A model generated the notes under the pieces. The model made no database searches. It was given only the letters and a program-made list of their open reading frames with translations, and was not told the origin of the DNA. From a virus (lineage: Duplodnaviria; Caudoviricetes), in the IMG/VR virus record IMGVR_UViG_3300042507_002545, positions 33,989 through 97,988 of that record: a DNA stretch of 64,000 bases; one strand, 5' to 3'. Both the position numbers and the translations under genes were made by a program. Position 1 is the first letter of the stretch. Each line of letters starts with the position of its first letter. Positions 39,793-55,405 of this stretch are shown one piece after another.

Positions 39793-39831
39793 AACTTTAT
39801 ATGGGGGGACAGCTTAACTGAACAAATGTAT

Positions 39832-41823
39832 ATGAGACACTGGGTCATGGATTATGAAACCTTAACGAATTGTTTTGTTGCGGTATTCATACACTATAAA
39901 GAAGAAGAGCAAAGAGTATTTACAATACATAAATCTAAGAATGATTTTTATGCTCTGTGGAATTTCCTACATACATGTAAAGAAGATAATGAATGGCATG
40001 TATCATTTAATGGTTTAGCATTTGACTCCCAAATCACTGAGTATATCCTTAAGCAAGGAGAACAACTTATTGATTTACCTGGGGAAGAAATAGCTAAGGC
40101 TATCTATAGGAAAGCCCAAAATGTAATTGAACGTAGTAATAATAATGAGTTCTCGGAGTATCCTGAGTGGAAGTTATCTATTCCACAAATTGATTTATAT
40201 AAACTAAATCATTGGGATAATGCAGCTAAAAGATCTAGTCTTAAATGGATTGAGTATTCAATGGATTGGCATAACGTACAAGAGATGCCTATACATCATA
40301 CTACAGTTATTGAAACACAAGATCAAATAGATAACATTATATCTTATTGTATTAATGACGTATTAGCAACTAAGAAGATATTACACATATCTAAATCTCA
40401 GATTGGTTTACGGAAAAGTCTTACTGAAGAGTATGGTGTTAATTTATATAGCGCATCTGAACCTAGAATTTCTAAAGAGTTATTTGCTTTATTTTTATGT
40501 GAGGCGCTTGGCATGAAAAAGGCCGAGCTTAAATCACTAAGAACAAGAAGAGGAATAATTGCTGTTAAAGATATCATATTAGATTATGTTAAGTTTGACC
40601 GTAAAGAATTCCAAAATCTTCTTGAGAAGTTTAATAGTCTTAATATTGATGCGAGCAATACCAAAGGTGCCTTCAAGTATACAATGACCCATAAGGGTGT
40701 AAAGACAGATTTTGGTTTTGGTGGTGTTCACGGTGCTACAAAAGCAGGTGTTTATAAAAGCCAAGATGGTATGATAATAATGACGTCTGACGTTACTAGT
40801 TTCTACCCTAATCTTGCTATCCGCAATAAGTGGGCGCCGGCACATTTACCAAAGAAGATTTTTTGTGATCAATATGAGTGGTTCTTTGAAGAAAGAAAAA
40901 AGATACCCAAGAAAGATCCAAAGAATTATGTGTATAAGATTATTCTTAACAGTACTTATGGTTTAAGTAATGATGAGAATAGCTTTCTATATGACCCCGA
41001 GTTTACCATGCGTATTACTATGAACGGACAACTGAGTTTGATGATGTTATATGAAATGTTATCATCGGGTATTCCAGGTAGTATTCCGTTAATGCAAAAC
41101 ACAGATGGTCTAGAAATGATGATTCCTGAAACATATAAGGAAAAGTATCTTGAAATTTGTGCAGAGTGGGAGAAGATAACACAACTTCAACTCGAGCATG
41201 ATCAATATGATAAGATGATTATCGGGGATGTAAATAATTATATTGCTGTACTAAGTGAGAAAGAATTAGATAAGAGTAAATGGGATGAACTTAAAAGTGA
41301 TAAACCACACTATGTATTTAAAGAGCGAGACGGTAAGTATTATTATCAAGCAACAAAATGTAAAGGTAGGTTTGAGTTTACAGACCTAGCGTTACATAAA
41401 AATAAAAGCTTCCTAGTAATACCAAAAGGTATATATAATTATTTTGTCCACGACATTGTTCCTGAGCAGTACATAAAGACCAATAAAAACATATTTGATT
41501 TCTGCGGCGGCGCAAAGATTAAAGGTGATTGGTATTTTATGGAAACATGTTTTAGAAATAATCAACGCTATGATACCGTACTACAACACATTGTAAGGTA
41601 TTATGTCTCTAATAGAGGCTGTAAAATAATTAAGTACAATAAAACAGATAAACGCGAGATCCAGTTAGAAGCTGGCAAGTGGATGCAAACTGTCTTTAAT
41701 GTATATGAAGAAAAACCTTGGGCTCAATATGGTATTAATGAAGACTACTATCTTCAAAATATATACAAGGAAATTGAGCACATAACAAAAGCAAAGCAGA
41801 AATCACAATTAAGTTTATTTTAA
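39832..41823 (+). CDS. family B DNA polymerase
   Basis: exonuclease DYE, FNGLAFD, YC.ND; polymerase DVTSFYP, KIILNSTYG, NTDG. Confidence 0.92.
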   Translation: MRHWVMDYETLTNCFVAVFIHYKEEEQRVFTIHKSKNDFYALWNFLHTCKEDNEWHVSFNGLAFDSQITEYILKQGEQLIDLPGEEIAKAIYRKAQNVIERSNNNEFSEYPEWKLSIPQIDLYKLNHWDNAAKRSSLKWIEYSMDWHNVQEMPIHHTTVIETQDQIDNIISYCINDVLATKKILHISKSQIGLRKSLTEEYGVNLYSASEPRISKELFALFLCEALGMKKAELKSLRTRRGIIAVKDIILDYVKFDRKEFQNLLEKFNSLNIDASNTKGAFKYTMTHKGVKTDFGFGGVHGATKAGVYKSQDGMIIMTSDVTSFYPNLAIRNKWAPAHLPKKIFCDQYEWFFEERKKIPKKDPKNYVYKIILNSTYGLSNDENSFLYDPEFTMRITMNGQLSLMMLYEMLSSGIPGSIPLMQNTDGLEMMIPETYKEKYLEICAEWEKITQLQLEHDQYDKMIIGDVNNYIAVLSEKELDKSKWDELKSDKPHYVFKERDGKYYYQATKCKGRFEFTDLALHKNKSFLVIPKGIYNYFVHDIVPEQYIKTNKNIFDFCGGAKIKGDWYFMETCFRNNQRYDTVLQHIVRYYVSNRGCKIIKYNKTDKREIQLEAGKWMQTVFNVYEEKPWAQYGINEDYYLQNIYKEIEHITKAKQKSQLSLF

Positions 41824-42814: not shown

Positions 42815-43305
42815 CAAGAGAAGATTTTAGCAGAAGAGTAGAGAAGCGGATTGACCTAATCCGCCAGACTCTACTTACTAAGCATAAAGAGTACGCTAAA
42901 GATGATAATGTATTCAGAAACTTTGATGAAGCTGCGGGGGGATTATCCCTCCACAGCACATCAGCTGAAGTTCTTTGGAGCTATATGACTAAGCACTTAG
43001 TTTCTATAAAAGATATAGTGTCTGATAATGTACCTGTTACAAATGAAGTAGTATCTGAAAAGATTGGAGATGTGATTAACTATCTTATCTTACTAGAGGC
43101 TATGTTAAATGAAAAGGGTGAAAGACACTGTAAACTTAAAGAAGCATATGAAAAATATAAGCTTTATAATAAAGCATCTGTAGATAGATTATCAATGTGG
43201 ACTAGTGACTACACTAAGAACACGGACATGCTAGGTCTTGTTAAGATGACTTCTAATGATATAGATAAGATAAAGTATAATACTAACGGAGATAAAGGAT
43301 ATTAA
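42811..43305 (+). CDS. nucleotide-modification-associated / all-alpha NTP-PPase-like protein
   Basis: K.KEYA.DD.VFRNF...KH...EKIGD.INYLILL. Confidence 0.6.
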   Translation: MTREDFSRRVEKRIDLIRQTLLTKHKEYAKDDNVFRNFDEAAGGLSLHSTSAEVLWSYMTKHLVSIKDIVSDNVPVTNEVVSEKIGDVINYLILLEAMLNEKGERHCKLKEAYEKYKLYNKASVDRLSMWTSDYTKNTDMLGLVKMTSNDIDKIKYNTNGDKGY

Positions 43306-43688
43306 TGAAGAAGTTTATAGATATGGTAGCGGAGTTCCATACCGCGTTTAACATGCCTGACCCACAAGATTACAAACAACTAACACAAGAAGAATATGAG
43401 TTACGTCACAGGCTCTTGGAAGAAGAGAATAACGAGTACCTTGAAGCTTGTGGTGATGATGACTTGGTGGGTATTGCGGATGCTCTTGGTGACCAGCTTT
43501 ATATCATTTACGGGACTATTCTTAAGCATGGCTTACAAGACCGGATTGAAGAAGTCTTCACGGAGATCCACAGATCCAACATGAGTAAGCTGGATGAAAA
43601 TGGAAAACCCATCCTCAGAGAAGATGGGAAGATCCTTAAAGGCAAGAATTATTTCAAGCCTGATATCAGTAGGGTGCTAGGGGTTTAA
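43305..43688 (+). CDS. MazG-like NTP pyrophosphohydrolase
   Basis: V.EFH..F, EE..E, DALGD.LY, EIHRSNMSK, DGKILKG. Confidence 0.88.
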   Translation: MKKFIDMVAEFHTAFNMPDPQDYKQLTQEEYELRHRLLEEENNEYLEACGDDDLVGIADALGDQLYIIYGTILKHGLQDRIEEVFTEIHRSNMSKLDENGKPILREDGKILKGKNYFKPDISRVLGV

Positions 43689-43825
43689 CCCTGACCTCTG
43701 TAAGCTTTCTTATAGTTCTTACTAGACTTTAGTCTACTAGTTTTAGTTTTTGCTATTACCCCAGGGCGGCTAACTTTAGTTGCTCTTGGAGCATAGCTGT
43801 TCTTTGCGTTTACTACTTTTGCCAT
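43685..43825 (-). CDS. small basic protein (46 aa, not in the track)
   Basis: MAKVVNAK...KSSKNYKKAYRGQG. Confidence 0.7.
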   Translation of the reverse strand: MAKVVNAKNSYAPRATKVSRPGVIAKTKTSRLKSSKNYKKAYRGQG

Positions 43826-44407: not shown

Positions 44408-44554
44408 TTAAGATCCGCAGTATAAACAACCGTCATCAGCATCTTCGCTGTCTCCGGCTAATATTTTTTTGCATTCAGCCTCTATTTGCTCATCTGACCA
44501 CTGTGGATGAAATGCTTTTACTTGAGCTCTAAGAAATTGGTAATCGTTATTCAT
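44408..44554 (-). CDS. 48-aa peptide ending CLYCGS (not in the track)
   Basis: MNNDYQFLRAQVKAFHPQWSDEQIEAECKKILAGDSEDADDGCLYCGS; ATG overlaps the upstream stop. Confidence 0.7.
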   Translation of the reverse strand: MNNDYQFLRAQVKAFHPQWSDEQIEAECKKILAGDSEDADDGCLYCGS

Positions 44555-44820
44555 TAACGTTTTATCTTTGCAATTCTCTTTACCATTTTAGGACGACTTC
44601 CTTCTAGCTTAGCTTCTTTAGCTGCAGCATTTATAGCCATAGCACCTTTAACCATAGCGTTTTTCGCACCAGTAGCTACTGTACCTTTAGATTGATACTT
44701 TGCACCACCTTTTTTCATAATACCTGCTACTTTAGTAGTACCGCCTTTTTTGTAAGTGTTTACACCTGCTCCGCCGCTGCGTGGAGTACGTCCCATCGGC
44801 ATGTAATTGTTTGTTGCCAT
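44554..44820 (-). CDS. basic protein with KKGG repeats
   Basis: YKKGG, MKKGG, YQSKG. Confidence 0.65.
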   Translation of the reverse strand: MATNNYMPMGRTPRSGGAGVNTYKKGGTTKVAGIMKKGGAKYQSKGTVATGAKNAMVKGAMAINAAAKEAKLEGSRPKMVKRIAKIKR

Positions 44821-44832
44821 TATATATAGAAT

Positions 44833-45297
44833 TTAGTTTGTTATAATAAGTATACTTAATAAAAATACGGAGATTCCGCCGAATATCCAATTGTTTCTTT
44901 TAGCCACACCAAGATTACCTTGCGATATATGTAGGGAATCCCTGGTTTCTACCAGGTTTGATTGTAAAACAAAGTTTCTATCAAGGCACTCTGTTGTTCT
45001 TTGGTTTGCTGCATCCATGTATCCAGCCATCTTTTTGATCTCAAACTCCTTATCAAGAATGCGGAGTTCTTGGGTCTTAATGATTTGGTCTTTACCTGCA
45101 ATGCTTTTCTGCAGGTAGTCATAGTCCACAATAGATTTAAGCAAGAGCTCCTCTTGTTTATCTGTGAAGAAGATACCTTTGTCACCATTATAGTTAATCC
45201 TTTGGGGAGTAAGTTGTCCATATACGGTCACGCTGTTCATCAGTTGCGTTAGGGATAATAGCAATAAGTATATCCCGATCACCTTTATCTTTGTCAT
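44833..45297 (-). CDS. putative spanin-like lysis protein
   Basis: signal peptide, coiled coil, C-terminal TM; overlaps the upstream gene. Confidence 0.5.
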   Translation of the reverse strand: MTKIKVIGIYLLLLSLTQLMNSVTVYGQLTPQRINYNGDKGIFFTDKQEELLLKSIVDYDYLQKSIAGKDQIIKTQELRILDKEFEIKKMAGYMDAANQRTTECLDRNFVLQSNLVETRDSLHISQGNLGVAKRNNWIFGGISVFLLSILIITN

Positions 45298-45559
45298 CTT
45301 GTTTGTTTATAGTGTTTATACTGTTAACTCGTTGAATATCAACAATATCCAAACTGTCTTGGAGAATCTTTAGCTTTAAAGAATCTACTAAGATACTATC
45401 TCTTACATCATCGGCATAAGCTTGACGCTTAAGGTCTTCTATCTTAAGATCTTTTACCTTATTCTTATATTGCAATATTGCGATAAAGGCTACAATTGTT
45501 ACTAAGGTTACTGCTACAGCTATATCACTATACAGTTTCTTCAGTTGGCGCTGTGTCAT
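45194..45559 (-). CDS. putative i-spanin-like protein
   Basis: start MTQRQL; N-terminal TM + coiled coil. Confidence 0.5.
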   Translation of the reverse strand: MTQRQLKKLYSDIAVAVTLVTIVAFIAILQYKNKVKDLKIEDLKRQAYADDVRDSILVDSLKLKILQDSLDIVDIQRVNSINTINKQDDKDKGDRDILIAIIPNATDEQRDRIWTTYSPKD

Positions 45560-45839
45560 AAGTAATCTCAGGTTGTGGCTCAGGGGCCGGTTGTACTGGA
45601 GCTGGAATTGGTACCTCTTTTCTTTTATCAAAGATCTTCTCAATAACCGTTAAGCCTAGTCCTCCACCTGCTATTAGACATAGAGCGTCAAACATAAACT
45701 CCGGTGTGATGTGATCATCATTCCTGAAGGTGGCTACGTAAGCTAAGATAATGATATTTAATAATGTAAATGCAGAAAGAACTCTCTTACTTGAAAGAGA
45801 GGATCTGTTACTAAACATGTCATAGAAAAAGTTTTTCAT
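45528..45839 (-). CDS. putative holin
   Basis: SSKRV followed by two TM helices, GLGLTVIEK. Confidence 0.65.
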   Translation of the reverse strand: MKNFFYDMFSNRSSLSSKRVLSAFTLLNIIILAYVATFRNDDHITPEFMFDALCLIAGGGLGLTVIEKIFDKRKEVPIPAPVQPAPEPQPEITYDTAPTEETV

Positions 45840-45851
45840 TTTGTTATTCTT

Positions 45852-46604
45852 TTATTTTTTTTCTTTACTTCCTTCTTGGGTAGCATACTTGATTCCCATG
45901 ATAGTTCCAACTATTGAAAAGGCGTTTGTTAATAAGACACTAAACATATTACTCCAAGTTGAACCAATTATTTGTGTGTCTTTGCTCATAACTATTGCCA
46001 TCCAATATAGTATTGTTGTAATAACCCCAACTCCTACTATAACGGACAACGCAACTTTAACAATGACTTTTATTAACTCACTTTGACTTTTCTTCATTAC
46101 TATATCCAAGTCATTCAAAGCTGCATCCTTTTCTATCTCTATTGAATTTTTAAGATCCTGTGATTTTTTTAACTCAATCTGCAAATCTTTTGAAAGAGCA
46201 TCTACTGTATTTTTACTATTTACCATAGGTGTAATGTCAGTAGCAATCTTCATTATTTTAGTTATAGTACCGCTTTCATCTAAAATAGGATTGTATGTAG
46301 CTTGTAAGTAAATGGGAGCCCCGTCTATTTTTTTTCTTTCAAACTCTCCTTCAAAAAACTTACCCTCTCTTAGTGTGTCCCAGAACTTTTTATACTCCTC
46401 AGATTTTGAATAGTTATAGTCTACAAAAATGCTATGATGCTTACCAATTAGTTGAGCATGCTCATTTTCTTGAAAGCCCATTGCTTTTAAGAATATAGGA
46501 TTCACCCCTAGGATGTATCCATTGAGATCAAAGTAGATAATAGCGTTACTTCTGTTAATTGCTTCTAATCTACTGAGCAGCTCTTCTTTTGATAAGTTTT
46601 TCAC
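45852..46604 (-). CDS. PAS/PAC-domain protein with coiled coil and two C-terminal TM helices
   Basis: AINRSNAII.FDLNG.IL..N..FL..MG...GKHHSIF...FW..LR.G...GEF.R....G....LQATYNPI.D..G...K..K.ATDIT (chemoreceptor-type PAS). Confidence 0.88.
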   Translation of the reverse strand: MKNLSKEELLSRLEAINRSNAIIYFDLNGYILGVNPIFLKAMGFQENEHAQLIGKHHSIFVDYNYSKSEEYKKFWDTLREGKFFEGEFERKKIDGAPIYLQATYNPILDESGTITKIMKIATDITPMVNSKNTVDALSKDLQIELKKSQDLKNSIEIEKDAALNDLDIVMKKSQSELIKVIVKVALSVIVGVGVITTILYWMAIVMSKDTQIIGSTWSNMFSVLLTNAFSIVGTIMGIKYATQEGSKEKK

Positions 46605-47149
46605 TAGAACTCTCTTAATAGGGTATAAGTAAATGCCTTCTTACCTGATGCTTTACAAGCTGCAATCAATGTAGCATATTGCTTAGGATCATTAAGTACT
46701 TGACATCCTGCTGACCACTTATCTATAATGCTAGATACAGCATTAGGATTAGCACGGTGAATGTTAATACCAAATAAACCTGTTTGTTCTGTAGAGGTCT
46801 CTTCAGCTACATCATCCTTGTCACCATCACGGTATACAGTTACAGGTTTACGTTGTACTAACGCTTCATACTTACCTTGGTGTAACCCTAAGTGGTAAGC
46901 ATCTACATACTGTCCTGGTTTAAGTAATGCTGCTCCTTTAGGATTAAGCAAGTTCTTTAACCAGTGTGTACCAGGATTAGTGGTGCAACTAAATGGAGTC
47001 ATGATAAGACCGTTTACAAGATACATAGTATCATCAAACTTGTTCTTCTCATTAGCCTTAGACCTTACTCCAATAAGATGAAGGGTTGGCCATTGGTAAC
47101 CGAATCCAGCAAATTCTGTTTCTAATTCTTTGTATGTGTATTGTTTCAT
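46604..47149 (-). CDS. putative endolysin with L,D-transpeptidase-like catalytic motif
   Basis: GINIH-x14-SAGC; first gene of the lysis cassette. Confidence 0.65.
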   Translation of the reverse strand: MKQYTYKELETEFAGFGYQWPTLHLIGVRSKANEKNKFDDTMYLVNGLIMTPFSCTTNPGTHWLKNLLNPKGAALLKPGQYVDAYHLGLHQGKYEALVQRKPVTVYRDGDKDDVAEETSTEQTGLFGINIHRANPNAVSSIIDKWSAGCQVLNDPKQYATLIAACKASGKKAFTYTLLREF

Positions 47150-47152
47150 ATA

Positions 47153-47184
47153 TATAAGATAATGATAATTATTATTTAAACCAA
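47153..47184 (-). promoter_or_regulatory. putative late promoter TTGG-N19-TATCTTATA
   Basis: same geometry as 5266..5297; ends 4 nt before the endolysin ATG. Confidence 0.45.
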
Positions 47185-47185
47185 C

Positions 47186-50100
47186 TTATTGTTCTACTAC
47201 TATGTTTTTACGTCTTGTTTCCATTGTTTTTTGTCTACCTGCAGGATCTATAAATTGACCACTTAATCCAAAGAATTGACCAAATGTTGAATACCATTTT
47301 GGATCACCAGCTTTTTCCCAAGGATATACACCAGAATCTTTTTGGTAAATACCAGATCTATTATCCGTAATATCTGCTGCAATATAACTAATTAAGTTTA
47401 TTGTACGGTTAAAAGTAGGATTAAGCATTGCACCTGTTTTAAGATTAAATATACTACTAAGATTACTAAGTCCGTATCCAGGTGCTGCTAACCAGTCTTC
47501 TTGGTCATGACCTACACGAGTTGTAATATATAGAGCTTGTAATTTTAACCACTCTTGAGAATCAAATCTTGCAGTTTCTTTTTCAACATCTCCATATAAA
47601 TCACTTTCAACTTCAGCACCTAAAATTGGCAATGGTCCACTTCTTCTATAAAGCTTTTTCCAAGTATCAGGAGTTGGTAATTCTTGTACACCACTTTCTT
47701 CTTTTTTACGCTCTTTAACTTTTCTTTTTAAATAGCTTTCGACATCTCCCGTTACAAGCAATCTTGCTTTAGCTTTAAGATCAGCTTTTCTCTTTTTCTT
47801 GGCTTGTTCTTCTAGTGCTTCTTCTTCATCATCATCTGGGTTATAATCAAGAAGTACAGACTTCATGTAGCCAATAGCCATTAACATACCTATCCACCTT
47901 ACACTTTTCATCATGTATACACCTTCTTCTCTTGAAGGAGATACTAATCCTGAACCATATGTTCTTACAGCTTTAGTTAGATAGTTAGTTACAGCACTGA
48001 AGAATCCCATATGAATATCATCATTACCCCAATCGTATCTTCCACGACCTTCACCCAAAAATATATTACCTTTTGCACCATAGTGATTTATTAACATCCT
48101 TGTAAGGTGCTTTTGAATAAATGATACCACTCTATATAAAGCAAACTTCATTGCTTGTGGTTGGTTGAAATCTCCAAATGCTCCGTTTATGTTAGATATA
48201 ACGGTTTGCATTCTACTTTTTACTTTTAAGAATTCTGGACCATTGATATCATATTTAGGGTCTATACCATCTTTTAATTTTATAAGACCATCTGGACCTT
48301 TCTCCCAAGCTCTTAAGTAATTTATATAGGTTGTTTTATTATTTACTGTAATTGGAACTTTTTGATAATGCATCAATGCACCCATAGTTTGCATTGTTGC
48401 TAACATCTCAAGCCACTTACGTGTATTAGTCATGAAGTTAAGTCTAACAATATCACCTGCAAGATTTCTAGCAAGACCATCATCTAGAGCTCTTTTTTGG
48501 TAATCCTCTCCAGGATCAAAAAGCTCAATAAGCTGACCTGTAACTGACTTAGGACCTGCTTTATAAATCTCTGCGGTTACAGTACTCATAGCAAAAAGAC
48601 CCCAAGCTTTACCAGCTTGTAAGCTTGCTGGGTTTATATATTTAAATCCCCAACCTTCAATTTTTAACTCCATTAAGGCATCATAGTAGTTTACAAGGGC
48701 GCTACTTGGATCTAAAGCAAAGTATCCAAATGACGCTACTTTAGCCATTCCTCCAAATAAATTATTTATTGCTGTAGCACCGGCACCTGTTCCATACTTT
48801 TGACCTTCAAATTCTCTAGCGATAAGATAATCTAATGCTTCATATCTAGGAGTTTCTTTAAAAAAGCCAACTACTTTTTCTTTTTGGGTCTTTTTAGTTT
48901 GTTTCTCAGATGTAATAATTTCACCTAAGTTATCTAACTTATTCTTTTTATAAACTCTTTTTCCACTTTCAGCATCCTTAACATAGTAGAATTCTTTCAT
49001 AGCTTTAGCCATTGGAGATAACTCAACAAGCTTCTGATGCTTTTCTAAAGATGCCATATAACGCATTGTACTTTTTACAAAGTTTCTCGATACGTTATTC
49101 ATTTCAATATTAGACCTACCTTGAATAGGAATTTTTGAATTTTGTTTAGCAAAGAAGCTTAATGATTCTACTTCATAATCTTCTGTAAAGTTTGCATCAC
49201 CTTCTTCAAATGATCCAGGTCTTGGTGTAAAGAATCTTATTGCATTTTCAAACCAGCGACTAAAAACTTTTGGTTTTTTTAAATTACGTTTACCAAATAC
49301 ACTCTTTTTTGCATTTCTTAATACATCTCCTACATCTTCTGCAATATCTGTGGTGTATCTAGGAAGCTCCAAATACATTTTAGTGCTACGGTCTTTGCCT
49401 TCTTGAATACCTATATAAAATTCTTTATACTTTTCAAGTGCGTCAAACATAGCCTTATTGGTGCGACGAAGTTCTGCATAACGACTATTTATAAAACGAC
49501 CATCTGGCGCACCTTGCGTTAAACGTTTAGGTAACCAGTTACCTTTATTGTCTTTGTTAGGTGGAATAATATTACCATTTGCATCCTCTGTGTTAGGTAA
49601 TATTTCTTCAGTTAAAAATTCTGGTTTAACATCAAACGTATAATACTCTAAATTAGGTACTGCAAATAATGTTTCTTTTACAAGATTTCCTGATGCATCT
49701 TTTTCTAAAGTTGCCGTAGGTATTTCAGTGCTTTCAAATAGTTTATTATCTGTAGGCTCGTTATAGTTCCAAACTTGTAGTCTTTGCCAAGAATCTGCCC
49801 AGCCGCCTTTACCATCATAAGTTTTTACTCGTATGTGATTTTTATCAAACCATATTGCAAACTGTGCATTTTGAGATTTTATCTCATCTACAACATCGTC
49901 TAATAAAAAGTACTTATCTGCATTTTCTTGATCTATATAGTTAATACCTAAATCGTCAATAACAAATTGGGTATCTACAAGAGTCAAATAGTTATTGTAT
50001 ATATCTAGGTAGTACGTATTTACTTTTTTCTCACTAAGACTTCTTAATGTTTTATAAGCTGTTGCTAATGCTTTGTTTTCATCTTTAGTTAAACCATTAT

Positions 50101-53100
50101 AAGATTGTTTTTCAAATAGCTCAGCAGCACGGTCTTGTTCATCTTGAGATGGCATTTGACCTAGTCCAACATTAGCCATTGCAAAACGTTCAACATAATC
50201 AAGTAAGAAATCATTTTCTTCTTCAGTAAGATTATTAATCTTACCAGAGTTTTCTTTTGCGTATACAATAACCTCTTGGATATTTTTAATAAGAGCCATA
50301 GCTTCTTCTGTTATTTCAGAAGCTGCTACCATTTTACTCTCATCTCTACTAATAGAAGCAATGTCATTTATAATAGAATATAAATCACCAACTGATTCTA
50401 TTTGATCAATTATATCTTGACTTACATTTCTTTGCGCAAGTTGTTCTTTAAGAACCTTAGCAGTTGCTTCTTTTATTTTTGGATCTTTTTTAGCTTCAAT
50501 TTCTTTGATAGCTTGATAAAGACCGGCCTGTATTTCATAGTATTCTTTTTTTGCACTTACTCTTGTATTATTTCCAAGCCAAGCTTCACGCTCTCTTAAA
50601 AATTCTGGAGAATTTCTATCACCATTTATACTTGGTCTTAATAGTAACTGCTGTTCGTAGTCAGCCAATGCTTTTAAAAATACACCAGGACGTGGTTTAG
50701 ATTCATAGAATCCTGAACTTAAGCTTCTATATTCACGTAATCTTTCAGCAATAAGTTTTTCATCTCCGGTCTTAAGGTTTCCAAATCTGTCTACTAAGCT
50801 ATATAAAAATCTTTTTTCTTCTAGTGCAAGTTTACGTAGCTCAGTTTCATCTTTAATTTCAAAGCCTTGACGCTTCATGTCTTTCCACATTTGAAGCTTT
50901 TCATTAATATCATCAAGTCTTCTTTTAGCTTCTGCACCTATATCATCTCTTTCAAATAGTTCTTGTCTATCATAGAATTCAGGCTTATACTTATTATGAA
51001 AGTATAAACGTCGCATTCTATCATAGTCTTGTTTAACCTTATTATATGCTTTCTTATCGACATCATTTAAGCTTTGGTAATATGTAAAACGAGCTTTCTC
51101 AATATTAAATTGTTCCTGCGCATCCCACCATTCATACCCTACAAATTCATCTAAGAACTTTAATACTTTAAACTCATAAAGATTACCATTTGCATTTTTT
51201 TCAGCAATGCTATCCTCCATTAAGAAAGTATCTGCCATGCTAACCAAATTTCTTGCATTTATACCAGCTTTCTTAAGAGCCGGTACAACTTGTGATGCAA
51301 ACATAACTTTATGCATATGGACTTTTGATTCCATTTCCATATAGTTGTTTCTTAGATACTTAGCAAAAGCTCCTACAACAGGATCTTGGTTAACCAAGTA
51401 ACTTTCAAATAATGCATTTATTTGGCTGGCAAGTCCGTTGTTTACAAGATCGCCATCTACCATTTTCTTAAAAGAATCTTTGGTAAGCTTTATACTATTA
51501 TAAGCAGCTTCTTCTATGGCTAATAATCTTGCATTAGCTAATGGAGAATTTTCTAAAAATGCTTTACGTTTTAGCCAACGCTCATCTATTTTTTTAGCTG
51601 TTGGCTCAACAAATTCCCAAAGAGTGTCTGTTAAGTTTTCACCATATATATATAATGCAGCTTTCTTACCTCTTTTTGAAGCTTTTTCAATTTCTGATAC
51701 AAGCTTTTGAAGATCAGATTCTTCTGTAACACCAATGTTTTCCAAGTCATCGGTGATTTTATTAGCTAACTCTATAAAAGAATCTAGATAATCACTTAGA
51801 TTTTTAACACGGTAAATACTAGTTTCAGACACACCAAGCTCTTTAATTTCTTCAATTCTACCAGCAATCTTTTTAGAAATCATATTTAATTGCTGAAGAC
51901 TATTAACAAAGGCAATAGCAAGTTTTCTATTCTCTTCTACAAGATCTTTAATGTGTCTGGTTCTACTAGACTCATAAGTACTAAGGGTAGATGTAATATA
52001 TGCAATGTCCCTACTATCTTCAGTTGTTAGTAGGAGAGCAAGTTCCTGGTACTCTTCTTTAGTGGTAGCTTGAAGCTGATCACTAAATAGTTTATACATT
52101 GCATCGATAGTATTTTTAAGTTGGGCATGTGTCTTTTTAGCAGTCGCGTCATCTACTGCATTATCCAACTCTTTAATAAAATCATTTATTTCTTTAGCGT
52201 ATTGTACTCTATCATCTTCAATAGATTCTTTACTAGCTATAGATGTGTCTATATTAAACTTCTCAGATAGCATTTCATTTGCTAAATCCATAAAAGAAGT
52301 ATTAACTCCTAGGTCACTAAGTTTAGGTCCAGCACCAAATAGTTTTCTAAAGAACTTTTTGATTTGATAAAGTATATTAGAAACAATTTCGCTAAATGAA
52401 TTTGGCATTGGTGTATTAGAAAGCTGAGCTTGTCCAGCCATAGTTAATACATGCACAATAATCTCTTCTGAAAAGCCTTGTGGATCTCCTTCAAGTTCAG
52501 GGTACAGCTTTAAAAAGTTTTCTTGCAGTCCCATTTTACCTAACTCAGACCAAGCTTTCTTAGCTAGTTTTTGAAATAGCTCTGGGTTTTCTTTTGCCAA
52601 GTACTTTACAAAAGGGTGAGCAAACTCGTGGAATAAAGTCTTTGTACTTAATGCACCATCTACTACATATACTTTTCCATTATAAACAAATGCTGGTTCA
52701 TTATTATAAGGAGCCTTTGTATTCTTAGTAAGTTCTATTGCCTCATCTTTACTAATAAATTGAACCTCAGGTTCACCAAACACATTTAACATGTTCATAC
52801 TAGCTGCTAAGTTTTTTACAACTTGCATTGCTTGAACATGCTCTGATTGCTCTTGAGTCAAAGTATTTGTCAATAGTTCATCTATTGCTTCATTACCCTC
52901 TTCATTGACAAGATTGATCATATCATCAATAGCTTCAATCTCCCTTATAAACCACGCCCTATCTATACCACTCTCCTGAGAATTAGGTGAGTTAGGTTGT
53001 ATAGGTAGCGGAGTCTTGAGCACCTTGATGAAATATTTTTGAGGTCCATTTCTTAAATCATTCTCCTCTTTTACAACATCTAAGTAACGTATATTACCGT

Positions 53101-55405
53101 TAAGTCTATTATACGCGTTAACCTCATTTATAGCATTGTTGTAACCACCTTGTGCTAAATACTTTTTATTATATATATTCTTGTCACCATTCAGTTTCAT
53201 AAGATGTTTTTTAAACTGAGCAGGTGTTAAGTCATATATGTTCTTGTTATACTGTGGAGTATCCGTTGCTATATCTACAATAGCATCATTGCTAAATGCA
53301 ACTAGATACTGACTATCTGAAAACATTGTATAATCAAGACCCTTATAGCCTCTATCTTTAAGAAAGCTAAAGAAACTATTTTGAATAGCTAATCCTTCTG
53401 GAGAATTATCAAGTATATTAAACTCAGCTCCAGCTTGTTTTGCAAACTCAGACCTAAGACTTCTATACTCTTTACTATCTCCTTCTAAAAACCCTTTAGT
53501 GTCTACGCTTACTTGTCTTACATTTTTACCGTAGTCCTTTGCCTCTGCTTTATCAACAGTAAAATAGTTAATATTTCTATTATCTAGAGTATCATACCCT
53601 TGATAAACAGTTTTAACACCATCATTAGTCTCCGCAGTTTCTTGTATTGTATCTTCTATAAAAGAAAAATATCTAAATCCAGGAGTTTTAAATTTATAAA
53701 TGTCACTCTTAAATGGAGCAAAGTATATTAAATCCATAATATCTTTACCACGGCCCATATTTATTTTTGCTTCAAAGATTTGCTTCCAATCTTTCCAGTA
53801 GTTATCAAATATCTCTGGATAGTTACCCTCCGCAGTTCTTAAAAAGAAATCTAAAACGTATCTTTTAGGTCTAGTTTCACCAGTTTCTTCATCAATTTCA
53901 AATGCTGTAGGATGCTCAATGTATCCTGTAATAGTAACGCTTTCACCTTTTTTATGGTCACGTCCTATAAATGCAGTTTGGAATGTCCATGAAGGAAATA
54001 CTTCTTTTAGGTTTTTATACCAAGATTGACCTTCTAAAAGTGGTATAATTTCTTTATTAAATTGATTACGCCCCAAAGCTGAACCAACGGTTGTTTTACG
54101 CTGCATGTAACTTAAACCTTTAGTTTGAATCCAGTCTAAGAATTGCATAGCGTTTGCTTCTTTCATGAAATGCTCAAGTGTAATAACACCGTCAATATCA
54201 TGTAGGTCCTCACTAAAGCTTCTGTATGTAGCTCCATATCTTCTCAATACTTGAGAGCCAGATAGTTTATAAGCTTTACCCTCAGGGTCTAATGAGTTAA
54301 ATAGTTTTTGCAACACATCTGCTGCAAAAGGATCTGCAGATAATGTAGTGTAATAGTTTTTTTGTTCTAGTAGATTACCTTTTTTATCGTAGAGCATACC
54401 ATCTCGGACCTCTATACCACGCATCCACTTTTTGAAATCCTTCTTATAGATATCGTCTACTAGGTCAAAAAGTAAATCGTTAAGCTTTTCAGCATTATAC
54501 TTAGTAAAAGGTTTGCCTTTTATAGCCTTACGAATAAAATTATATAATGCAGCAAAGGCTGTTTTAAGAACTGTTACTGCATAAGGGCTTTTAAAACCTT
54601 TTTCCGCAAAAAAAGATTTATCAATATCTGGATTTTCAAAATCTATCTTTTCACGTAAATCTGGTCTATAGTTAAGTAAACCTTCTGTGATAAACTCAAT
54701 AATAACTTGTTTATGAGCCCAAGCATTTTTAGGTGCCCCCTTACGCTCTGAAGGGTCATCAACTATTTCTTCAATAACATCTAAATCAGCTTGTTGAATA
54801 TTATTGTTTTTAGTTAAAGCATCATACTTATCATACAGCTCCTCATACTTATTCCAAAGCTTAATATTAAACCATAAATCTTTAGCTATTTTAGATTTTC
54901 TACCTAAGAATGTATACGCAATATTAGCAGTTTGTTTTGCTAATCCTCTATCGGAAAGATTTTTTGGTATTGCTAGGAGTTTCTGAAGCATATCAAAAGC
55001 TGCAACTGGGGGACCTAGTTCGCCTTTATCCCATCTTCCTGCAGAGTTCATTTGCTCTGCTAAACCAGTCCACTCTTGACTACCTTCTTCAACAATATCA
55101 ATACGTAGTGATCTTATAAAATCATATAAGGAATCTCTAAACTCTTTTTGTTGACCCTCAAATTTTTGATAAGCCTTAAGATTACCTTTGAAGTTTCTTA
55201 CTTTAAACTTTTTAAGCTCTTGTCGCTTAGCTTTATAATAGTCTTTGCGTTCTGGATAAGCTTCTTGTAAAGTATCTAAAATAGCAAAAGGATCAATTAA
55301 AGAGCCCTTATCTTCAGTAAGTAGTAAATAATTACTTACATCGTAGTCTCCTAACAATCTTCTTGCTGCTTCTAATGAAGGATTAAAAATTTGACAACTA
55401 GCCAT
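47186..55405 (-). CDS. giant virion ejection-type protein (2739 aa) with zincin, NTase-like and ART-like segments
   Basis: adjacent to the vRNAP as in crAss-like phages; HEFAH; SGS...DLHDID; C-terminal hydrophobic helices. Confidence 0.75.
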   Translation of the reverse strand: MASCQIFNPSLEAARRLLGDYDVSNYLLLTEDKGSLIDPFAILDTLQEAYPERKDYYKAKRQELKKFKVRNFKGNLKAYQKFEGQQKEFRDSLYDFIRSLRIDIVEEGSQEWTGLAEQMNSAGRWDKGELGPPVAAFDMLQKLLAIPKNLSDRGLAKQTANIAYTFLGRKSKIAKDLWFNIKLWNKYEELYDKYDALTKNNNIQQADLDVIEEIVDDPSERKGAPKNAWAHKQVIIEFITEGLLNYRPDLREKIDFENPDIDKSFFAEKGFKSPYAVTVLKTAFAALYNFIRKAIKGKPFTKYNAEKLNDLLFDLVDDIYKKDFKKWMRGIEVRDGMLYDKKGNLLEQKNYYTTLSADPFAADVLQKLFNSLDPEGKAYKLSGSQVLRRYGATYRSFSEDLHDIDGVITLEHFMKEANAMQFLDWIQTKGLSYMQRKTTVGSALGRNQFNKEIIPLLEGQSWYKNLKEVFPSWTFQTAFIGRDHKKGESVTITGYIEHPTAFEIDEETGETRPKRYVLDFFLRTAEGNYPEIFDNYWKDWKQIFEAKINMGRGKDIMDLIYFAPFKSDIYKFKTPGFRYFSFIEDTIQETAETNDGVKTVYQGYDTLDNRNINYFTVDKAEAKDYGKNVRQVSVDTKGFLEGDSKEYRSLRSEFAKQAGAEFNILDNSPEGLAIQNSFFSFLKDRGYKGLDYTMFSDSQYLVAFSNDAIVDIATDTPQYNKNIYDLTPAQFKKHLMKLNGDKNIYNKKYLAQGGYNNAINEVNAYNRLNGNIRYLDVVKEENDLRNGPQKYFIKVLKTPLPIQPNSPNSQESGIDRAWFIREIEAIDDMINLVNEEGNEAIDELLTNTLTQEQSEHVQAMQVVKNLAASMNMLNVFGEPEVQFISKDEAIELTKNTKAPYNNEPAFVYNGKVYVVDGALSTKTLFHEFAHPFVKYLAKENPELFQKLAKKAWSELGKMGLQENFLKLYPELEGDPQGFSEEIIVHVLTMAGQAQLSNTPMPNSFSEIVSNILYQIKKFFRKLFGAGPKLSDLGVNTSFMDLANEMLSEKFNIDTSIASKESIEDDRVQYAKEINDFIKELDNAVDDATAKKTHAQLKNTIDAMYKLFSDQLQATTKEEYQELALLLTTEDSRDIAYITSTLSTYESSRTRHIKDLVEENRKLAIAFVNSLQQLNMISKKIAGRIEEIKELGVSETSIYRVKNLSDYLDSFIELANKITDDLENIGVTEESDLQKLVSEIEKASKRGKKAALYIYGENLTDTLWEFVEPTAKKIDERWLKRKAFLENSPLANARLLAIEEAAYNSIKLTKDSFKKMVDGDLVNNGLASQINALFESYLVNQDPVVGAFAKYLRNNYMEMESKVHMHKVMFASQVVPALKKAGINARNLVSMADTFLMEDSIAEKNANGNLYEFKVLKFLDEFVGYEWWDAQEQFNIEKARFTYYQSLNDVDKKAYNKVKQDYDRMRRLYFHNKYKPEFYDRQELFERDDIGAEAKRRLDDINEKLQMWKDMKRQGFEIKDETELRKLALEEKRFLYSLVDRFGNLKTGDEKLIAERLREYRSLSSGFYESKPRPGVFLKALADYEQQLLLRPSINGDRNSPEFLREREAWLGNNTRVSAKKEYYEIQAGLYQAIKEIEAKKDPKIKEATAKVLKEQLAQRNVSQDIIDQIESVGDLYSIINDIASISRDESKMVAASEITEEAMALIKNIQEVIVYAKENSGKINNLTEEENDFLLDYVERFAMANVGLGQMPSQDEQDRAAELFEKQSYNGLTKDENKALATAYKTLRSLSEKKVNTYYLDIYNNYLTLVDTQFVIDDLGINYIDQENADKYFLLDDVVDEIKSQNAQFAIWFDKNHIRVKTYDGKGGWADSWQRLQVWNYNEPTDNKLFESTEIPTATLEKDASGNLVKETLFAVPNLEYYTFDVKPEFLTEEILPNTEDANGNIIPPNKDNKGNWLPKRLTQGAPDGRFINSRYAELRRTNKAMFDALEKYKEFYIGIQEGKDRSTKMYLELPRYTTDIAEDVGDVLRNAKKSVFGKRNLKKPKVFSRWFENAIRFFTPRPGSFEEGDANFTEDYEVESLSFFAKQNSKIPIQGRSNIEMNNVSRNFVKSTMRYMASLEKHQKLVELSPMAKAMKEFYYVKDAESGKRVYKKNKLDNLGEIITSEKQTKKTQKEKVVGFFKETPRYEALDYLIAREFEGQKYGTGAGATAINNLFGGMAKVASFGYFALDPSSALVNYYDALMELKIEGWGFKYINPASLQAGKAWGLFAMSTVTAEIYKAGPKSVTGQLIELFDPGEDYQKRALDDGLARNLAGDIVRLNFMTNTRKWLEMLATMQTMGALMHYQKVPITVNNKTTYINYLRAWEKGPDGLIKLKDGIDPKYDINGPEFLKVKSRMQTVISNINGAFGDFNQPQAMKFALYRVVSFIQKHLTRMLINHYGAKGNIFLGEGRGRYDWGNDDIHMGFFSAVTNYLTKAVRTYGSGLVSPSREEGVYMMKSVRWIGMLMAIGYMKSVLLDYNPDDDEEEALEEQAKKKRKADLKAKARLLVTGDVESYLKRKVKERKKEESGVQELPTPDTWKKLYRRSGPLPILGAEVESDLYGDVEKETARFDSQEWLKLQALYITTRVGHDQEDWLAAPGYGLSNLSSIFNLKTGAMLNPTFNRTINLISYIAADITDNRSGIYQKDSGVYPWEKAGDPKWYSTFGQFFGLSGQFIDPAGRQKTMETRRKNIVVEQ

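What the first reader, a model, noticed from the sequence alone, without database searches (positions are those of the whole stretch)
44833..47149. PAS sensor membrane protein inside the lysis cassette
Seen: gene order is endolysin, then PAS/PAC + coiled coil + 2 TM (its GTG start overlaps the endolysin stop), then holin, then two spanin-like genes. The PAS domain is of the type found in soluble chemoreceptors such as BdlA, but no kinase or MCP output domain follows; the only output is a holin-sized TM pair. Inference: a ligand-, redox- or oxygen-gated holin or antiholin coupling lysis timing to host physiology. I know of no characterised example.
Basis: partly seen in the sequence, partly recalled or inferred. 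Interest (0 to 1): 0.75.

Follow-up and report, generated by a model that had tools for sequence, protein, structure and literature searches.

The report
Sensor-coupled membrane hairpin in phage lysis cassettes
This phage, and hundreds of uncultured aquatic phages, place a sensor-linked membrane protein between their cell-bursting genes, which suggests they sense the state of the host cell before deciding when to burst it.

Summary
On the minus strand lie a probable endolysin (46604-47149), a 250-aa PAS + long helix + two-TM protein (45852-46604) whose GTG shares one base with the endolysin stop, a small two-TM holin-like gene, and two spanin-like genes.

The PAS-TM gene is no oddity. 288 viral stretches encode relatives. 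In the 80 loci examined, an endolysin of four unrelated families lies within four genes in 76, while the other neighbours differ. Residues 210-242 (loop end plus TM2) are identical in 57 distinct sequences although synonymous sites are saturated. This hairpin module was found only in viral or phage-like contigs.

Elsewhere the module is fused to two PAS domains, another PAS type or GAF. Most often it carries a ~70-aa N-domain and sits directly behind a phage-encoded histidine kinase and a receiver-only protein, again among lysis genes. Linker lengths change in steps of seven residues.

Best reading (inferred, no experiment): a signal-gated, holin-class effector that sets lysis time. The PAS keeps the Trp and His typical of FAD-type redox sensors. 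Whether it forms holes, triggers holins or inhibits them is open. My literature searches found no description.

The parts
46604..47149 (-). Probable endolysin, 181 aa, with conserved His131 and Cys149; possibly a YkuD/L,D-transpeptidase-like peptidoglycan peptidase
   Evidence: phrog_33083 'endolysin' 9.4e-13 and phrog_3000 2.2e-33. No Pfam hit. AF2 pLDDT 75. Weak L,D-transpeptidase fold hits, E 2e-3 to 3e-2. Relatives are fused to PG_binding_1. Invariant H131, C149 and others in alignment A5.
45852..46604 (-). PAS-TM gene, 250 aa, GTG start sharing one base with the endolysin stop codon
   Evidence: 80 of 80 viral loci carry a 69-85% identical gene.
46230..46547 (-). PAS domain (residues ~20-125), cytoplasmic. 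H57 and W75 are invariant.
   Evidence: Pfam PAS_9, PAS, PAS_3 and PAS_4; TIGR00229. PDB sequence hits MmoS 3ewk 2e-9 and Aer 8dik 2e-3, with W75 and H57 aligned to their Trp and His. Foldseek top hits are LOV, MmoS, NifL and Aer. Invariant columns in A1.
46080..46229 (-). Helical linker / coiled coil (residues ~126-175) joining the PAS to TM1
   Evidence: AF2 shows a single helix 125-205. No indel between D123 and W217 in 57 distinct sequences. Related subfamilies differ by multiples of 7 residues.
45990..46079 (-). TM1 (residues ~176-205)
   Evidence: Hydropathy; AF2 helix.
45879..45977 (-). Invariant segment T210-T242 (loop end plus TM2): TQIIGSTWSNMFSVLLTNAFSIVGTIMGIKYAT
   Evidence: One amino acid per column in 57 distinct sequences, with 1-6 codons per column. 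Third-position identity is 0.51 here against 0.49 elsewhere.
45528..45839 (-). Small two-TM holin-like protein (103 aa; my 'C0' family), 12 nt downstream of the PAS-TM gene
   Evidence: Two TM segments. Own HMM of the C0 family 2.4e-26. A C0 member lies within 4 genes of the PAS-TM gene in 51 of 80 loci. No Pfam or PHROG holin family.
45194..45643 (-). i-spanin-like ORF: one N-terminal TM plus a hydrophilic, probably helical rest. The start is uncertain (TTG 45643 or ATG 45559).
   Evidence: No family hit.
44833..45297 (-). 154-aa ORF with an N-terminal hydrophobic segment and a C-terminal TM, overlapping the previous ORF by ~100 nt. Spanin-like, but without a lipobox cysteine.
   Evidence: No family hit. 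Lipobox plus C-terminal-TM proteins occupy similar places in other loci.

Best explanation
The 250-aa protein is a signal-gated, holin-class membrane effector that helps decide when the phage lyses its host.

Shown by computation:
- It consists of a cytoplasmic PAS domain, a rigid continuous helix, and an N-in/C-in two-helix membrane hairpin with a charged tail.
- It is a conserved member of lysis cassettes in many uncultured aquatic phages.
- The same hairpin module is wired elsewhere to other sensors (2xPAS, a second PAS type, GAF), or to a phage-encoded histidine kinase plus a receiver-only protein.

Inferred mechanism:
- The PAS probably binds a flavin, like the NifL/MmoS/Aer class, and so reads redox or energy state.
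- A change in that state alters the register of the dimeric coiled coil and moves TM1 against the invariant TM2.
- This switches the hairpins between an inert state and an active, oligomerising state that perturbs the membrane, like a pinholin.
- The resulting loss of membrane potential triggers the co-encoded canonical holin(s), which release the cytoplasmic endolysin.
- In the kinase/receiver version, the phosphorylated receiver would dock on the ~70-aa N-domain and do the same job.
For: Synteny:
- In 80 viral loci an endolysin (M15_3, GH19, GH24 or window-type, detected with my own HMMs) is adjacent in 54, within 2 genes in 67, and within 4 genes in 76. A holin-like gene lies within 4 genes in 60.
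- Cluster representatives were confirmed by Pfam and PHROG: Peptidase_M15_3 7.9e-19, Glyco_hydro_19 1.2e-6 with phrog_181 2e-65, Phage_lysozyme 4e-38, Phage_holin_4_1 8.5e-9.
- The commonest order is small holin-like gene, PAS-TM, endolysin. Median gaps are -1 and +2 nt, with many 4-nt overlaps. There are 58 different local architectures.
- Apart from the lysis genes, the neighbours are unrelated to the window's. tblastn with 12 window proteins found the PAS-TM in 80 of 80 loci, the holin in 5, the endolysin in 2, and the other nine in 0.

Selection:
- Residues 210-242 are invariant in 57 distinct sequences with saturated synonymous sites.
- There is no indel in the 95 residues from the end of the PAS to TM2.

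Modularity:
- An exhaustive search with residues 128-250 gave 100 cluster representatives. I classified them as 40 with the ~70-aa N-domain, 4 window-type PAS, 2 of another PAS type, 1 GAF, and 53 unclassified, mostly fragments. GAF scores 2.5e-17 and the second PAS 1.5e-10.
- N-domain forms lie directly behind a receiver-only protein (Response_reg 1.3e-8) and a membrane histidine kinase (HATPase_c 1.8e-15, some with a PAS).
- Counts: receiver at -1 in 116 of 121 loci, kinase within 4 genes in 112 of 121, endolysin within 4 genes in 79 of 121. In the marine set: receiver within 2 genes in 72 of 80, kinase within 4 in 73 of 80.
- Fused-sensor forms never have a kinase or receiver nearby: 0 of 80 and 0 of 4. 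The window's own record has none.
- The same PAS types occur either fused to the effector or inside the kinase: 56% identity, E 2e-44; and 39% identity, E 8e-24.

Linker: lengths change in heptad steps. The PAS-to-anchor distance is 42 or 35 residues. In N-domain forms the distance modulo 7 is 3 in 56 of 67 and 2 in 7 of 67.

Flavin lead:
- W75 and H57 are invariant and align with the Trp and His of MmoS and Aer.
- A Trp on the F-alpha helix is described as the main FAD determinant, with a His as a secondary one (PMC10468136, passages read).
- All top fold matches are flavin-binding PAS domains.

Need for a holin: the endolysin cluster representatives printed show no N-terminal signal or TM, so a hole-former is needed.
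Against: - There is no experiment of any kind, and no cultured phage carries the gene. tblastn against 50,697 phage records gave only 3 PAS-only matches, and none for the N-domain form.
- The hairpin matches no holin family in Pfam, PHROGs, NCBIfam or the PDB. Only the weak phrog_1544 (unknown function) appears.
- At 250 aa it is far larger than known holins.
- The loci I inspected contain other holin candidates: the C0 family, Phage_holin_4_1-like genes, or a 55-aa two-TM gene. It is therefore not needed as the hole-former.
- Holins normally diverge fast. An invariant TM2 could instead mean binding to a conserved host membrane target unrelated to lysis.
- FAD binding is inferred from two residues and fold class only. 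The RHPDMP-type segment of Aer is not present (alignment).
- The 80- and 130-locus sets contain related phages and are not independent samples.
- Endolysins were assigned by my own HMMs built from the same loci.
Confidence: 0.4

Rival explanations
1. Classical antiholin. The hairpin binds the neighbouring holin in the membrane and holds it inactive. The PAS (or the kinase/receiver pair) releases this block when its signal changes, so lysis is delayed or advanced according to host state.
For: The gene usually sits directly between a small two-TM holin-like gene and the endolysin, often with 4-nt overlaps. The C0 holin-like family lies within 4 genes in 51 of 80 loci. The sensor-plus-membrane-anchor design recalls T4 RI (recalled knowledge).
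Against: TM2 is invariant while the neighbouring holin candidates differ. C0 members are only 28-29% identical to the window's. Some loci have Phage_holin_4_1-like or other small TM genes instead. The hairpin shows no sequence similarity to C0. A conserved internal start that would give a holin/antiholin pair is absent: Met occurs near the juxtamembrane motif in 19 of 64 and 42 of 147 sequences.
Confidence: 0.25
2. A membrane function that is not lysis and merely travels with late membrane-protein genes. Examples: superinfection exclusion, or modulation of a conserved host membrane complex (respiration, transport or envelope synthesis) in response to the sensed signal.
For: Absolute conservation of TM2 across phages with different lysis genes is what binding to a conserved host target would predict. 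The module was found only in viral or phage-like contigs and belongs to no known family. In the marine set, endolysins are less tightly linked: 11 of 80 within 4 genes and 23 of 80 within 8 genes.
Against: The position between holin-like and endolysin genes is kept although endolysin families are swapped. The kinase-receiver-effector block is flanked on both sides by endolysins in many freshwater loci, for example L245 and L258. A random gene of a ~100-gene phage would lie within 4 genes of the endolysin about 8% of the time (my estimate, not computed).
Confidence: 0.2
3. A captured host chemoreceptor or PAS protein fragment, as the public label 'methyl-accepting chemotaxis protein' implies, with a taxis-related function or none.
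For: JGI names many of the 371-aa relatives 'methyl-accepting chemotaxis protein'. Cellular PAS domains are 40-50% identical.
Against: There is no MCP signalling domain. The hairpin has no cellular relative: of the best 80 genome loci, only 3 cover it, and all 3 are phage-like lysis cassettes in MAG contigs. Strong purifying selection acts on the whole protein. The closest Bacteroidota PAS domains I inspected are in hybrid histidine kinases, not MCPs.
Confidence: 0.03

Closest known systems
Class II holins / pinholin-antiholin pairs (phage 21 S68/S71; lambda S105/S107). Recalled knowledge.
   Same: Two-TM hairpin predicted N-in/C-in with a charged C-terminal tail. TM2 is rich in small and polar residues. 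The gene lies next to the endolysin.
   Different: No sequence similarity to any holin family. Three times larger, because of a cytoplasmic sensor and coiled coil. No conserved dual start. TM2 is invariant, whereas holins are usually highly variable.
T4 lysis inhibition (holin T with antiholins RI and RIII). Recalled knowledge.
   Same: Lysis timing is coupled to a sensed signal by a dedicated phage protein acting at the membrane.
   Different: RI senses in the periplasm and is secreted and unstable. Here the sensor is a cytoplasmic PAS (or GAF, or a kinase/receiver pair) hard-wired by a helix to the membrane segment. The sequences are unrelated.
FAD-binding PAS redox/energy sensors: NifL, MmoS, Aer, AerC
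   Same: The PAS fold and best sequence and fold matches (3ewk 2e-9, 8dik 2e-3, 2gj3). The Trp on F-alpha and the His are both conserved (PMC10468136, passages). The signal leaves through a C-terminal helix.
   Different: The output is a two-helix membrane hairpin rather than a kinase, HAMP/MCP or NifA-binding domain. The cofactor is not shown. The Aer-type RHPDMP stretch is absent.
BdlA/McpS-type PAS-PAS soluble chemoreceptors
   Same: PAS of the same broad type. The 371-aa relatives also have two tandem PAS domains. BdlA PAS domains are predicted FAD binders in PMC8694187 (passages).
   Different: No MCP signalling domain. I did not align BdlA itself. The nearest cellular PAS domains I inspected are in Bacteroidota hybrid kinases.
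LytSR two-component control of LrgAB/CidAB holin-like proteins in Staphylococcus. Recalled knowledge.
   Same: A two-component system linked to holin/antiholin-like membrane proteins, as in the kinase-receiver-effector relatives.
   Different: That system is cellular and works through a DNA-binding regulator on transcription. Here it is phage-encoded, the receiver has no output domain, and it presumably acts directly on the effector (inferred).

Membership tests
PAS domain (Pfam PF13426/PF00989; TIGR00229) | Profile score above the curated cut-off | tested here: met
   PAS_9 43.1 bits (cut-off 27), PAS 34.4 (22.6), PAS_3 34.4 (25.6), PAS_4 30.4 (23.1). TIGR00229 46.7 bits (22.9).
PAS domain | Five-stranded antiparallel sheet with flanking helices | tested here: met
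   AF2 model, strands 21-25, 30-34, 84-91, 97-108, 114-123. Foldseek probability 1.0 to many PAS/LOV structures.
FAD-binding PAS clade (NifL/MmoS/Aer/AerC) | Conserved Trp on helix F-alpha (the primary FAD determinant according to PMC10468136) | tested here: met
   W75 aligns with the Trp of MmoS (3ewk) and Aer (8dik) and is invariant in 17 of 17 sequences.
FAD-binding PAS clade | Secondary His and/or Asn FAD contacts | tested here: inconclusive
   H57 aligns with the His of MmoS and Aer and is invariant. The position of the Asn was not checked against a structure.
FAD-binding PAS clade | Bound flavin | not testable with these tools
   Needs spectroscopy of purified PAS.
LOV photosensor | Photoactive Cys in the GXNCRFLQ motif | tested here: not met
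   In the alignment to phototropin-2 (2z6d), the Cys position is occupied by H57.
Methyl-accepting chemotaxis protein (the public label of relatives) | MCP signalling domain | tested here: not met
   Only PAS families were found in Pfam and NCBIfam.
Class II holin | Two TM domains, N-in/C-in, with a charged C-terminal tail | tested here: met
   Hydropathy. AF2 helices 125-205 and 211-246. Lys-rich flanks before TM1 and after TM2 (sequence). The topology is predicted, not measured.
Class II holin | Small size (about 60-150 aa) and membership of a described holin family | tested here: not met
   250 aa. No holin family in Pfam, PHROGs or NCBIfam.
Class II holin | Forms lethal membrane lesions at a programmed time | not testable with these tools
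   Needs expression and depolarisation assays.
Antiholin | Encoded with, and physically inhibits, a cognate holin | tested here: inconclusive
   A holin-like gene lies within 4 genes in 60 of 80 loci. Binding was not tested.
Antiholin (dual-start type) | Same reading frame as the holin, from an alternative start | tested here: not met
   An internal Met near the juxtamembrane motif occurs in only 19 of 64 and 42 of 147 sequences.
Two-component system (related loci, not the window) | Histidine kinase ATPase domain and a receiver domain with acidic pocket, phospho-acceptor Asp and conserved Lys | tested here: met
   HATPase_c 57.8 bits (cut-off 26.4) and Response_reg 35.4 bits (30.2) in L170. 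D9, D10, D63 and K116 are invariant in 24 receiver sequences. The assignment of these residues to receiver roles is from recalled knowledge. Both domains are absent from the window's record.

The most novel reading that the evidence does not exclude
Abundant uncultured aquatic phages, probably of Bacteroidota, carry their own signal-transduction pathways inside the lysis cassette. These are one-component forms (PAS, 2xPAS or GAF fused) and two-component forms (membrane histidine kinase, then a receiver-only protein, then a docking N-domain). All converge on one invariant, apparently virus-specific membrane hairpin. If so, lysis timing in these phages is not only a holin clock but a sensed decision, for example on host redox or energy state. 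The window's protein would be the one-component, probably flavin-based version.
Probability: 0.45. Interest if true: 0.9.

Novelty: new variant of a known kind. Interest (0 to 1): 0.8.

Why it matters
Holin timing is the textbook example of a simple protein clock. Apart from T4 lysis inhibition, little is known about phages adjusting the lysis moment to cell state.

Here a large membrane module, found only in viral and phage-like contigs, is wired to classical bacterial sensor domains and even to a phage-encoded two-component system, always among lysis genes. If it gates lysis, it would show that environmental phages read host physiology (redox, oxygen, small ligands) to choose burst time. That bears on models of viral lysis in lakes and oceans. 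It would also offer a compact, natural sensor-to-membrane switch for engineered lysis.

The case also corrects a widespread automatic label: thousands of database entries are called 'methyl-accepting chemotaxis protein'.

Tried and rejected
- DNA-level search of 44500-47500 against 50,697 phage records: no match.
- Protein search in the same collection: 3 records, PAS only. The N-domain form P0139 gave no match. So there is no cultured representative.
- Complex prediction of the receiver protein (A3) with the N-domain of the effector (A4, residues 1-85): no verdict (score 0.25, mark 0.32). This says nothing either way.
- Internal-start (lambda-like dual start) idea: a Met near the juxtamembrane motif is not conserved, 19 of 64 and 42 of 147. 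Dropped.
- Idea that a sensorless ~97-aa form exists (P0157): the matching viral loci encode 224-225-aa N-domain forms behind kinase and receiver genes. The short entry is probably a truncated gene call.
- Idea that the effector is the only possible holin in some loci: each locus I inspected closely had another small TM candidate or was cut by a contig end.
- PADLOC: nothing for the window proteins. Two weak coiled-coil-type hits (E ~3e-3) for the L170 effector were disregarded.
- PDB sequence search with the hairpin alone: nothing up to E 10.
- ESM Atlas with residues 160-250: nearest clusters are 100% viral hypothetical proteins, with scores 0.89, 0.77 and 0.77. These are leads only.
- One paper on pelagiphage kinases (PMC9599517, passages) concerns curli secretion genes, not this system.
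- One search was a script error and was rerun.
- Supplementary files of papers were not consulted. The supplementary figures and tables of PMC10468136 could show which PAS cluster this domain falls in.
Full report
WHAT IS IN THE WINDOW

The window is part of a 97,988-bp IMG/VR virus record estimated 82% complete. Its GC content is about 35%. Shine-Dalgarno-like motifs are almost absent: 3 of 69 ORFs, against 8% background. From recalled knowledge, this suits a Bacteroidota host.

Downstream of two giant ORFs on the minus strand lie five genes:
- a 181-aa ORF (46604-47149);
- a 250-aa ORF (45852-46604);
- a 103-aa two-TM ORF (45528-45839);
- a 149/121-aa ORF with one N-terminal TM (45194-45643);
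- an overlapping 154-aa ORF with hydrophobic segments at both ends (44833-45297).

The 250-aa ORF starts with a GTG that shares its G with the TAG stop of the 181-aa ORF.

The PAS domain is solid. It passes four Pfam PAS models above their cut-offs over residues ~20-125 and TIGR00229. Nothing else is recognised in the protein. The AF2 model (pLDDT 71) shows a PAS fold, then one unbroken helix 125-205, a five-residue loop, and a second helix 211-246. Lys-rich flanks on the N-side of TM1 and after TM2 predict an N-in/C-in hairpin with a cytoplasmic PAS.

The 181-aa protein is a probable endolysin:
- it matches the C-terminal half of the two-domain endolysin family phrog_33083 (9e-13) and phrog_3000 (2e-33);
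- its model gives weak but uniform L,D-transpeptidase/YkuD matches;
- His131 and Cys149 are invariant;
- the relative tested with Pfam (L083) carries an N-terminal PG_binding_1 domain.

The holin and spanin labels rest on topology only.

THE GENE IS A CONSERVED LYSIS-CASSETTE MEMBER, NOT A ONE-OFF

A word-indexed protein search found 5301 proteins at E <= 1e-3, many of them PAS-only. The best 120 are all 367-375 aa, 69-75% identical over 93-96% of the query. They carry a second PAS copy, and JGI often labels them 'methyl-accepting chemotaxis protein'.

In IMG/VR, 288 of 313 candidate stretches encode a relative. The 80 loci kept are 69-85% identical.

The neighbours are not the window's neighbours. 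tblastn with 12 window proteins found the PAS-TM in 80 of 80 loci, the holin-like protein in 5, the endolysin in 2, and the other nine proteins in none.

Clustering the flanking ORFs and checking representatives with Pfam and PHROGs showed what the neighbours are:
- Peptidase_M15_3, GH19 and GH24 endolysins;
- a small two-TM family related to the window's 103-aa protein;
- Phage_holin_4_1 proteins;
- lipobox-plus-C-terminal-TM proteins that look like unimolecular spanins.

With HMMs built from these clusters, an endolysin is the immediate neighbour in 54 of 80 loci, within two genes in 67, and within four in 76. A holin-like gene is within four genes in 60. Of the four loci without an endolysin, three are cut by a contig end next to the gene (L027, L079, L080) and one (L024) has only small TM neighbours.

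There are 58 different local gene orders. The commonest is holin-like gene, PAS-TM, endolysin, with median gaps of -1 and +2 nt.

The loci are not independent samples: 65 distinct protein sequences occur among 81. However, linkage to four unrelated endolysin families is hard to explain by shared descent of one block.

In GTDB genomes, only 3 of the best 80 loci cover the hairpin. All three are phage-type lysis cassettes on MAG contigs. The other 77 loci match only within residues 1-187. Those I inspected are tandem PAS domains of large Bacteroidota hybrid histidine kinases next to CheR/CheB-like genes.

AN INVARIANT MEMBRANE SEGMENT

Among 57 distinct 240-265-aa sequences, every residue from T210 to T242 (TQIIGSTWSNMFSVLLTNAFSIVGTIMGIKYAT) is identical. 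The same codons show up to six synonymous variants, and third-position identity is 0.51, against 0.49 in the rest of the gene. This is protein-level selection, not a DNA element or recent spread.

The segment is rich in Ser, Thr, Asn and Gly spaced along one helix face. No indel occurs anywhere between the end of the PAS and TM2.

THE HAIRPIN IS A MODULE WITH INTERCHANGEABLE INPUTS

An exhaustive phmmer search with residues 128-250 returned 100 cluster representatives. My classification:
- 40 carry a ~70-aa N-terminal domain, which I call LEGN after a motif;
- 4 carry the window-type PAS;
- 2 carry a different PAS;
- 1 carries GAF;
- 53 are unclassified, mostly fragments or odd gene calls.

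GAF (2.5e-17) and the second PAS (1.5e-10) were confirmed with Pfam. The nearest ESM-Atlas clusters are entirely viral (a lead only).

It sits directly behind a 145-aa receiver-only protein and a membrane histidine kinase, some of which contain a PAS.

In the marine-type set:
- the receiver is within two genes in 72 of 80 loci;
- the kinase is within four genes in 73 of 80;
- a holin-like gene is within four genes in 44 of 80;
- a recognised endolysin is within eight genes in only 23 of 80.

In a second, mostly freshwater set of 121 LEGN loci:
- the receiver is at -1 in 116;
- the kinase is within four genes in 112;
- an endolysin is within four genes in 79, typically in the order window-type endolysin, kinase, receiver, effector, GH19 endolysin.

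Three GAF-fused loci have an endolysin within four genes in 2 of 3.

Fused-sensor forms never have a receiver or kinase nearby: 0 of 80 and 0 of 4. The window's record has neither domain.

The same PAS types appear either fused to the effector or inside the kinase: 56% identity, E 2e-44; and 39% identity, E 8e-24.

Linker lengths differ by heptads. The PAS-to-anchor distance is 42 or 35 residues. In LEGN forms the distance from the N-domain motif to the TM2 Trp is congruent to 3 modulo 7 in 56 of 67 sequences and to 2 in 7 of 67. That is the signature of a register-sensitive coiled coil, as in sensor kinases.

WHAT THE PAS MAY SENSE

The best sequence matches among solved structures are the FAD-PAS of MmoS (2e-9), the Aer PAS (2e-3) and a LOV domain. 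The top fold matches are LOV, MmoS, NifL and Aer.

W75 and H57, both invariant, align with the Trp and His of MmoS and Aer. According to passages of PMC10468136, a Trp on F-alpha is the primary FAD determinant in these clusters and a His is a secondary one. The LOV cysteine is replaced by H57, so this is not a LOV photocycle. Passages of PMC8694187 list both BdlA PAS domains as predicted FAD binders.

Flavin-based redox or energy sensing is therefore the leading guess (my estimate about 0.35). It rests on two residues and a fold class.

HOW IT MOST LIKELY WORKS

Shown: the architecture, the conservation, the linkage to lysis genes, and the modular inputs.

Inferred: the sensor changes coiled-coil register, and this switches the hairpin between an inert and an active membrane state that sets the time of lysis.

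I favour a holin-class trigger (pinholin-like depolarisation that fires the co-encoded holins; confidence 0.40) over a holin-specific antiholin (0.25). The reason is that TM2 is invariant while the neighbouring holin candidates vary. A non-lysis membrane role aimed at a conserved host target remains possible (0.20).

Points against my reading:
- the hairpin has no homology to any holin family;
- it is large for a holin;
- the loci I inspected contain other holin candidates;
- there is no cultured phage or experiment.

NOVELTY

Five full-text searches found no paper describing a PAS protein or a two-component system in a phage lysis cassette:
- PAS domain + holin + endolysin + bacteriophage;
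- phage-encoded + histidine kinase + response regulator + lysis + viral contigs, with at least four of the five terms required;
- PAS domain + antiholin;
- five phrasings of 'phage/viral histidine kinase' or 'phage/virus two-component'; 0 papers;
- PAS domain + lysis cassette.

For some searches I saw only listings and abstract openings. The library lacks most subscription journals.

I file the protein as a new variant of a known kind (regulated holin/antiholin systems). If the wider reading holds, it would be close to a new kind: phage-encoded one- and two-component signalling converging on one membrane effector.

Noticed in passing
related loci, e.g. L170:3302-5597, L203:3329-5573, L245:2510-5234: A phage-encoded two-component set: a membrane histidine kinase (298-539 aa, some with a PAS, sometimes two kinases), a 145-aa receiver-only protein, and the hairpin effector with a ~70-aa N-domain. 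It is found in hundreds of viral contigs, often flanked by endolysins.
   Followed up: partly
window 47186-55405 and 55409-64000 (minus strand): Two giant ORFs (2739 aa, and more than 2863 aa running off the window) lie directly upstream of the lysis genes. The 2739-aa protein has no PHROG hit at E <= 1e-3. They are presumably virion or injected proteins.
   Followed up: partly
window 46604-47149; L083:7407-8216; L074, L077, L228 and others: The window's endolysin type (invariant His and Cys, weak YkuD/L,D-transpeptidase-like fold) has no Pfam family. It occurs alone, fused to PG_binding_1, or, in PHROG 33083, behind a GH24 lysozyme. It may be an undescribed endolysin catalytic domain.
   Followed up: partly
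window 43685-43825 (minus strand); L015:7470-7607 and two other loci: A 45-46-aa very basic protein is conserved near the lysis genes of several otherwise different phage contigs (cluster C31). It has no PHROG hit.
   Followed up: no
window ~43688/43685: Convergent transcription units meet here. The replication genes on the plus strand (DNA polymerase 39826-41823, phrog_1252 2e-133; MazG-like pyrophosphohydrolase 43305-43688) end where the minus-strand late and lysis genes end. GC skew changes sign at the same place.
   Followed up: no
L086:5416-9021, L098:5410-8655, L087, L095, L121: In Bacteroidota genomes the closest cellular PAS domains are tandem copies inside 1080-1290-aa hybrid histidine kinases (by my reading of the sequences: GAF-like region, PAS-PAS, coiled coil, kinase, several receivers). 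CheR- and CheB-like genes sit next to them in organisms generally regarded as non-flagellated. This is the likely source of the phage PAS.
   Followed up: no
public protein databases: Many of the 371-aa phage proteins are labelled 'methyl-accepting chemotaxis protein' by an automatic pipeline although they lack the MCP domain.
   Followed up: yes
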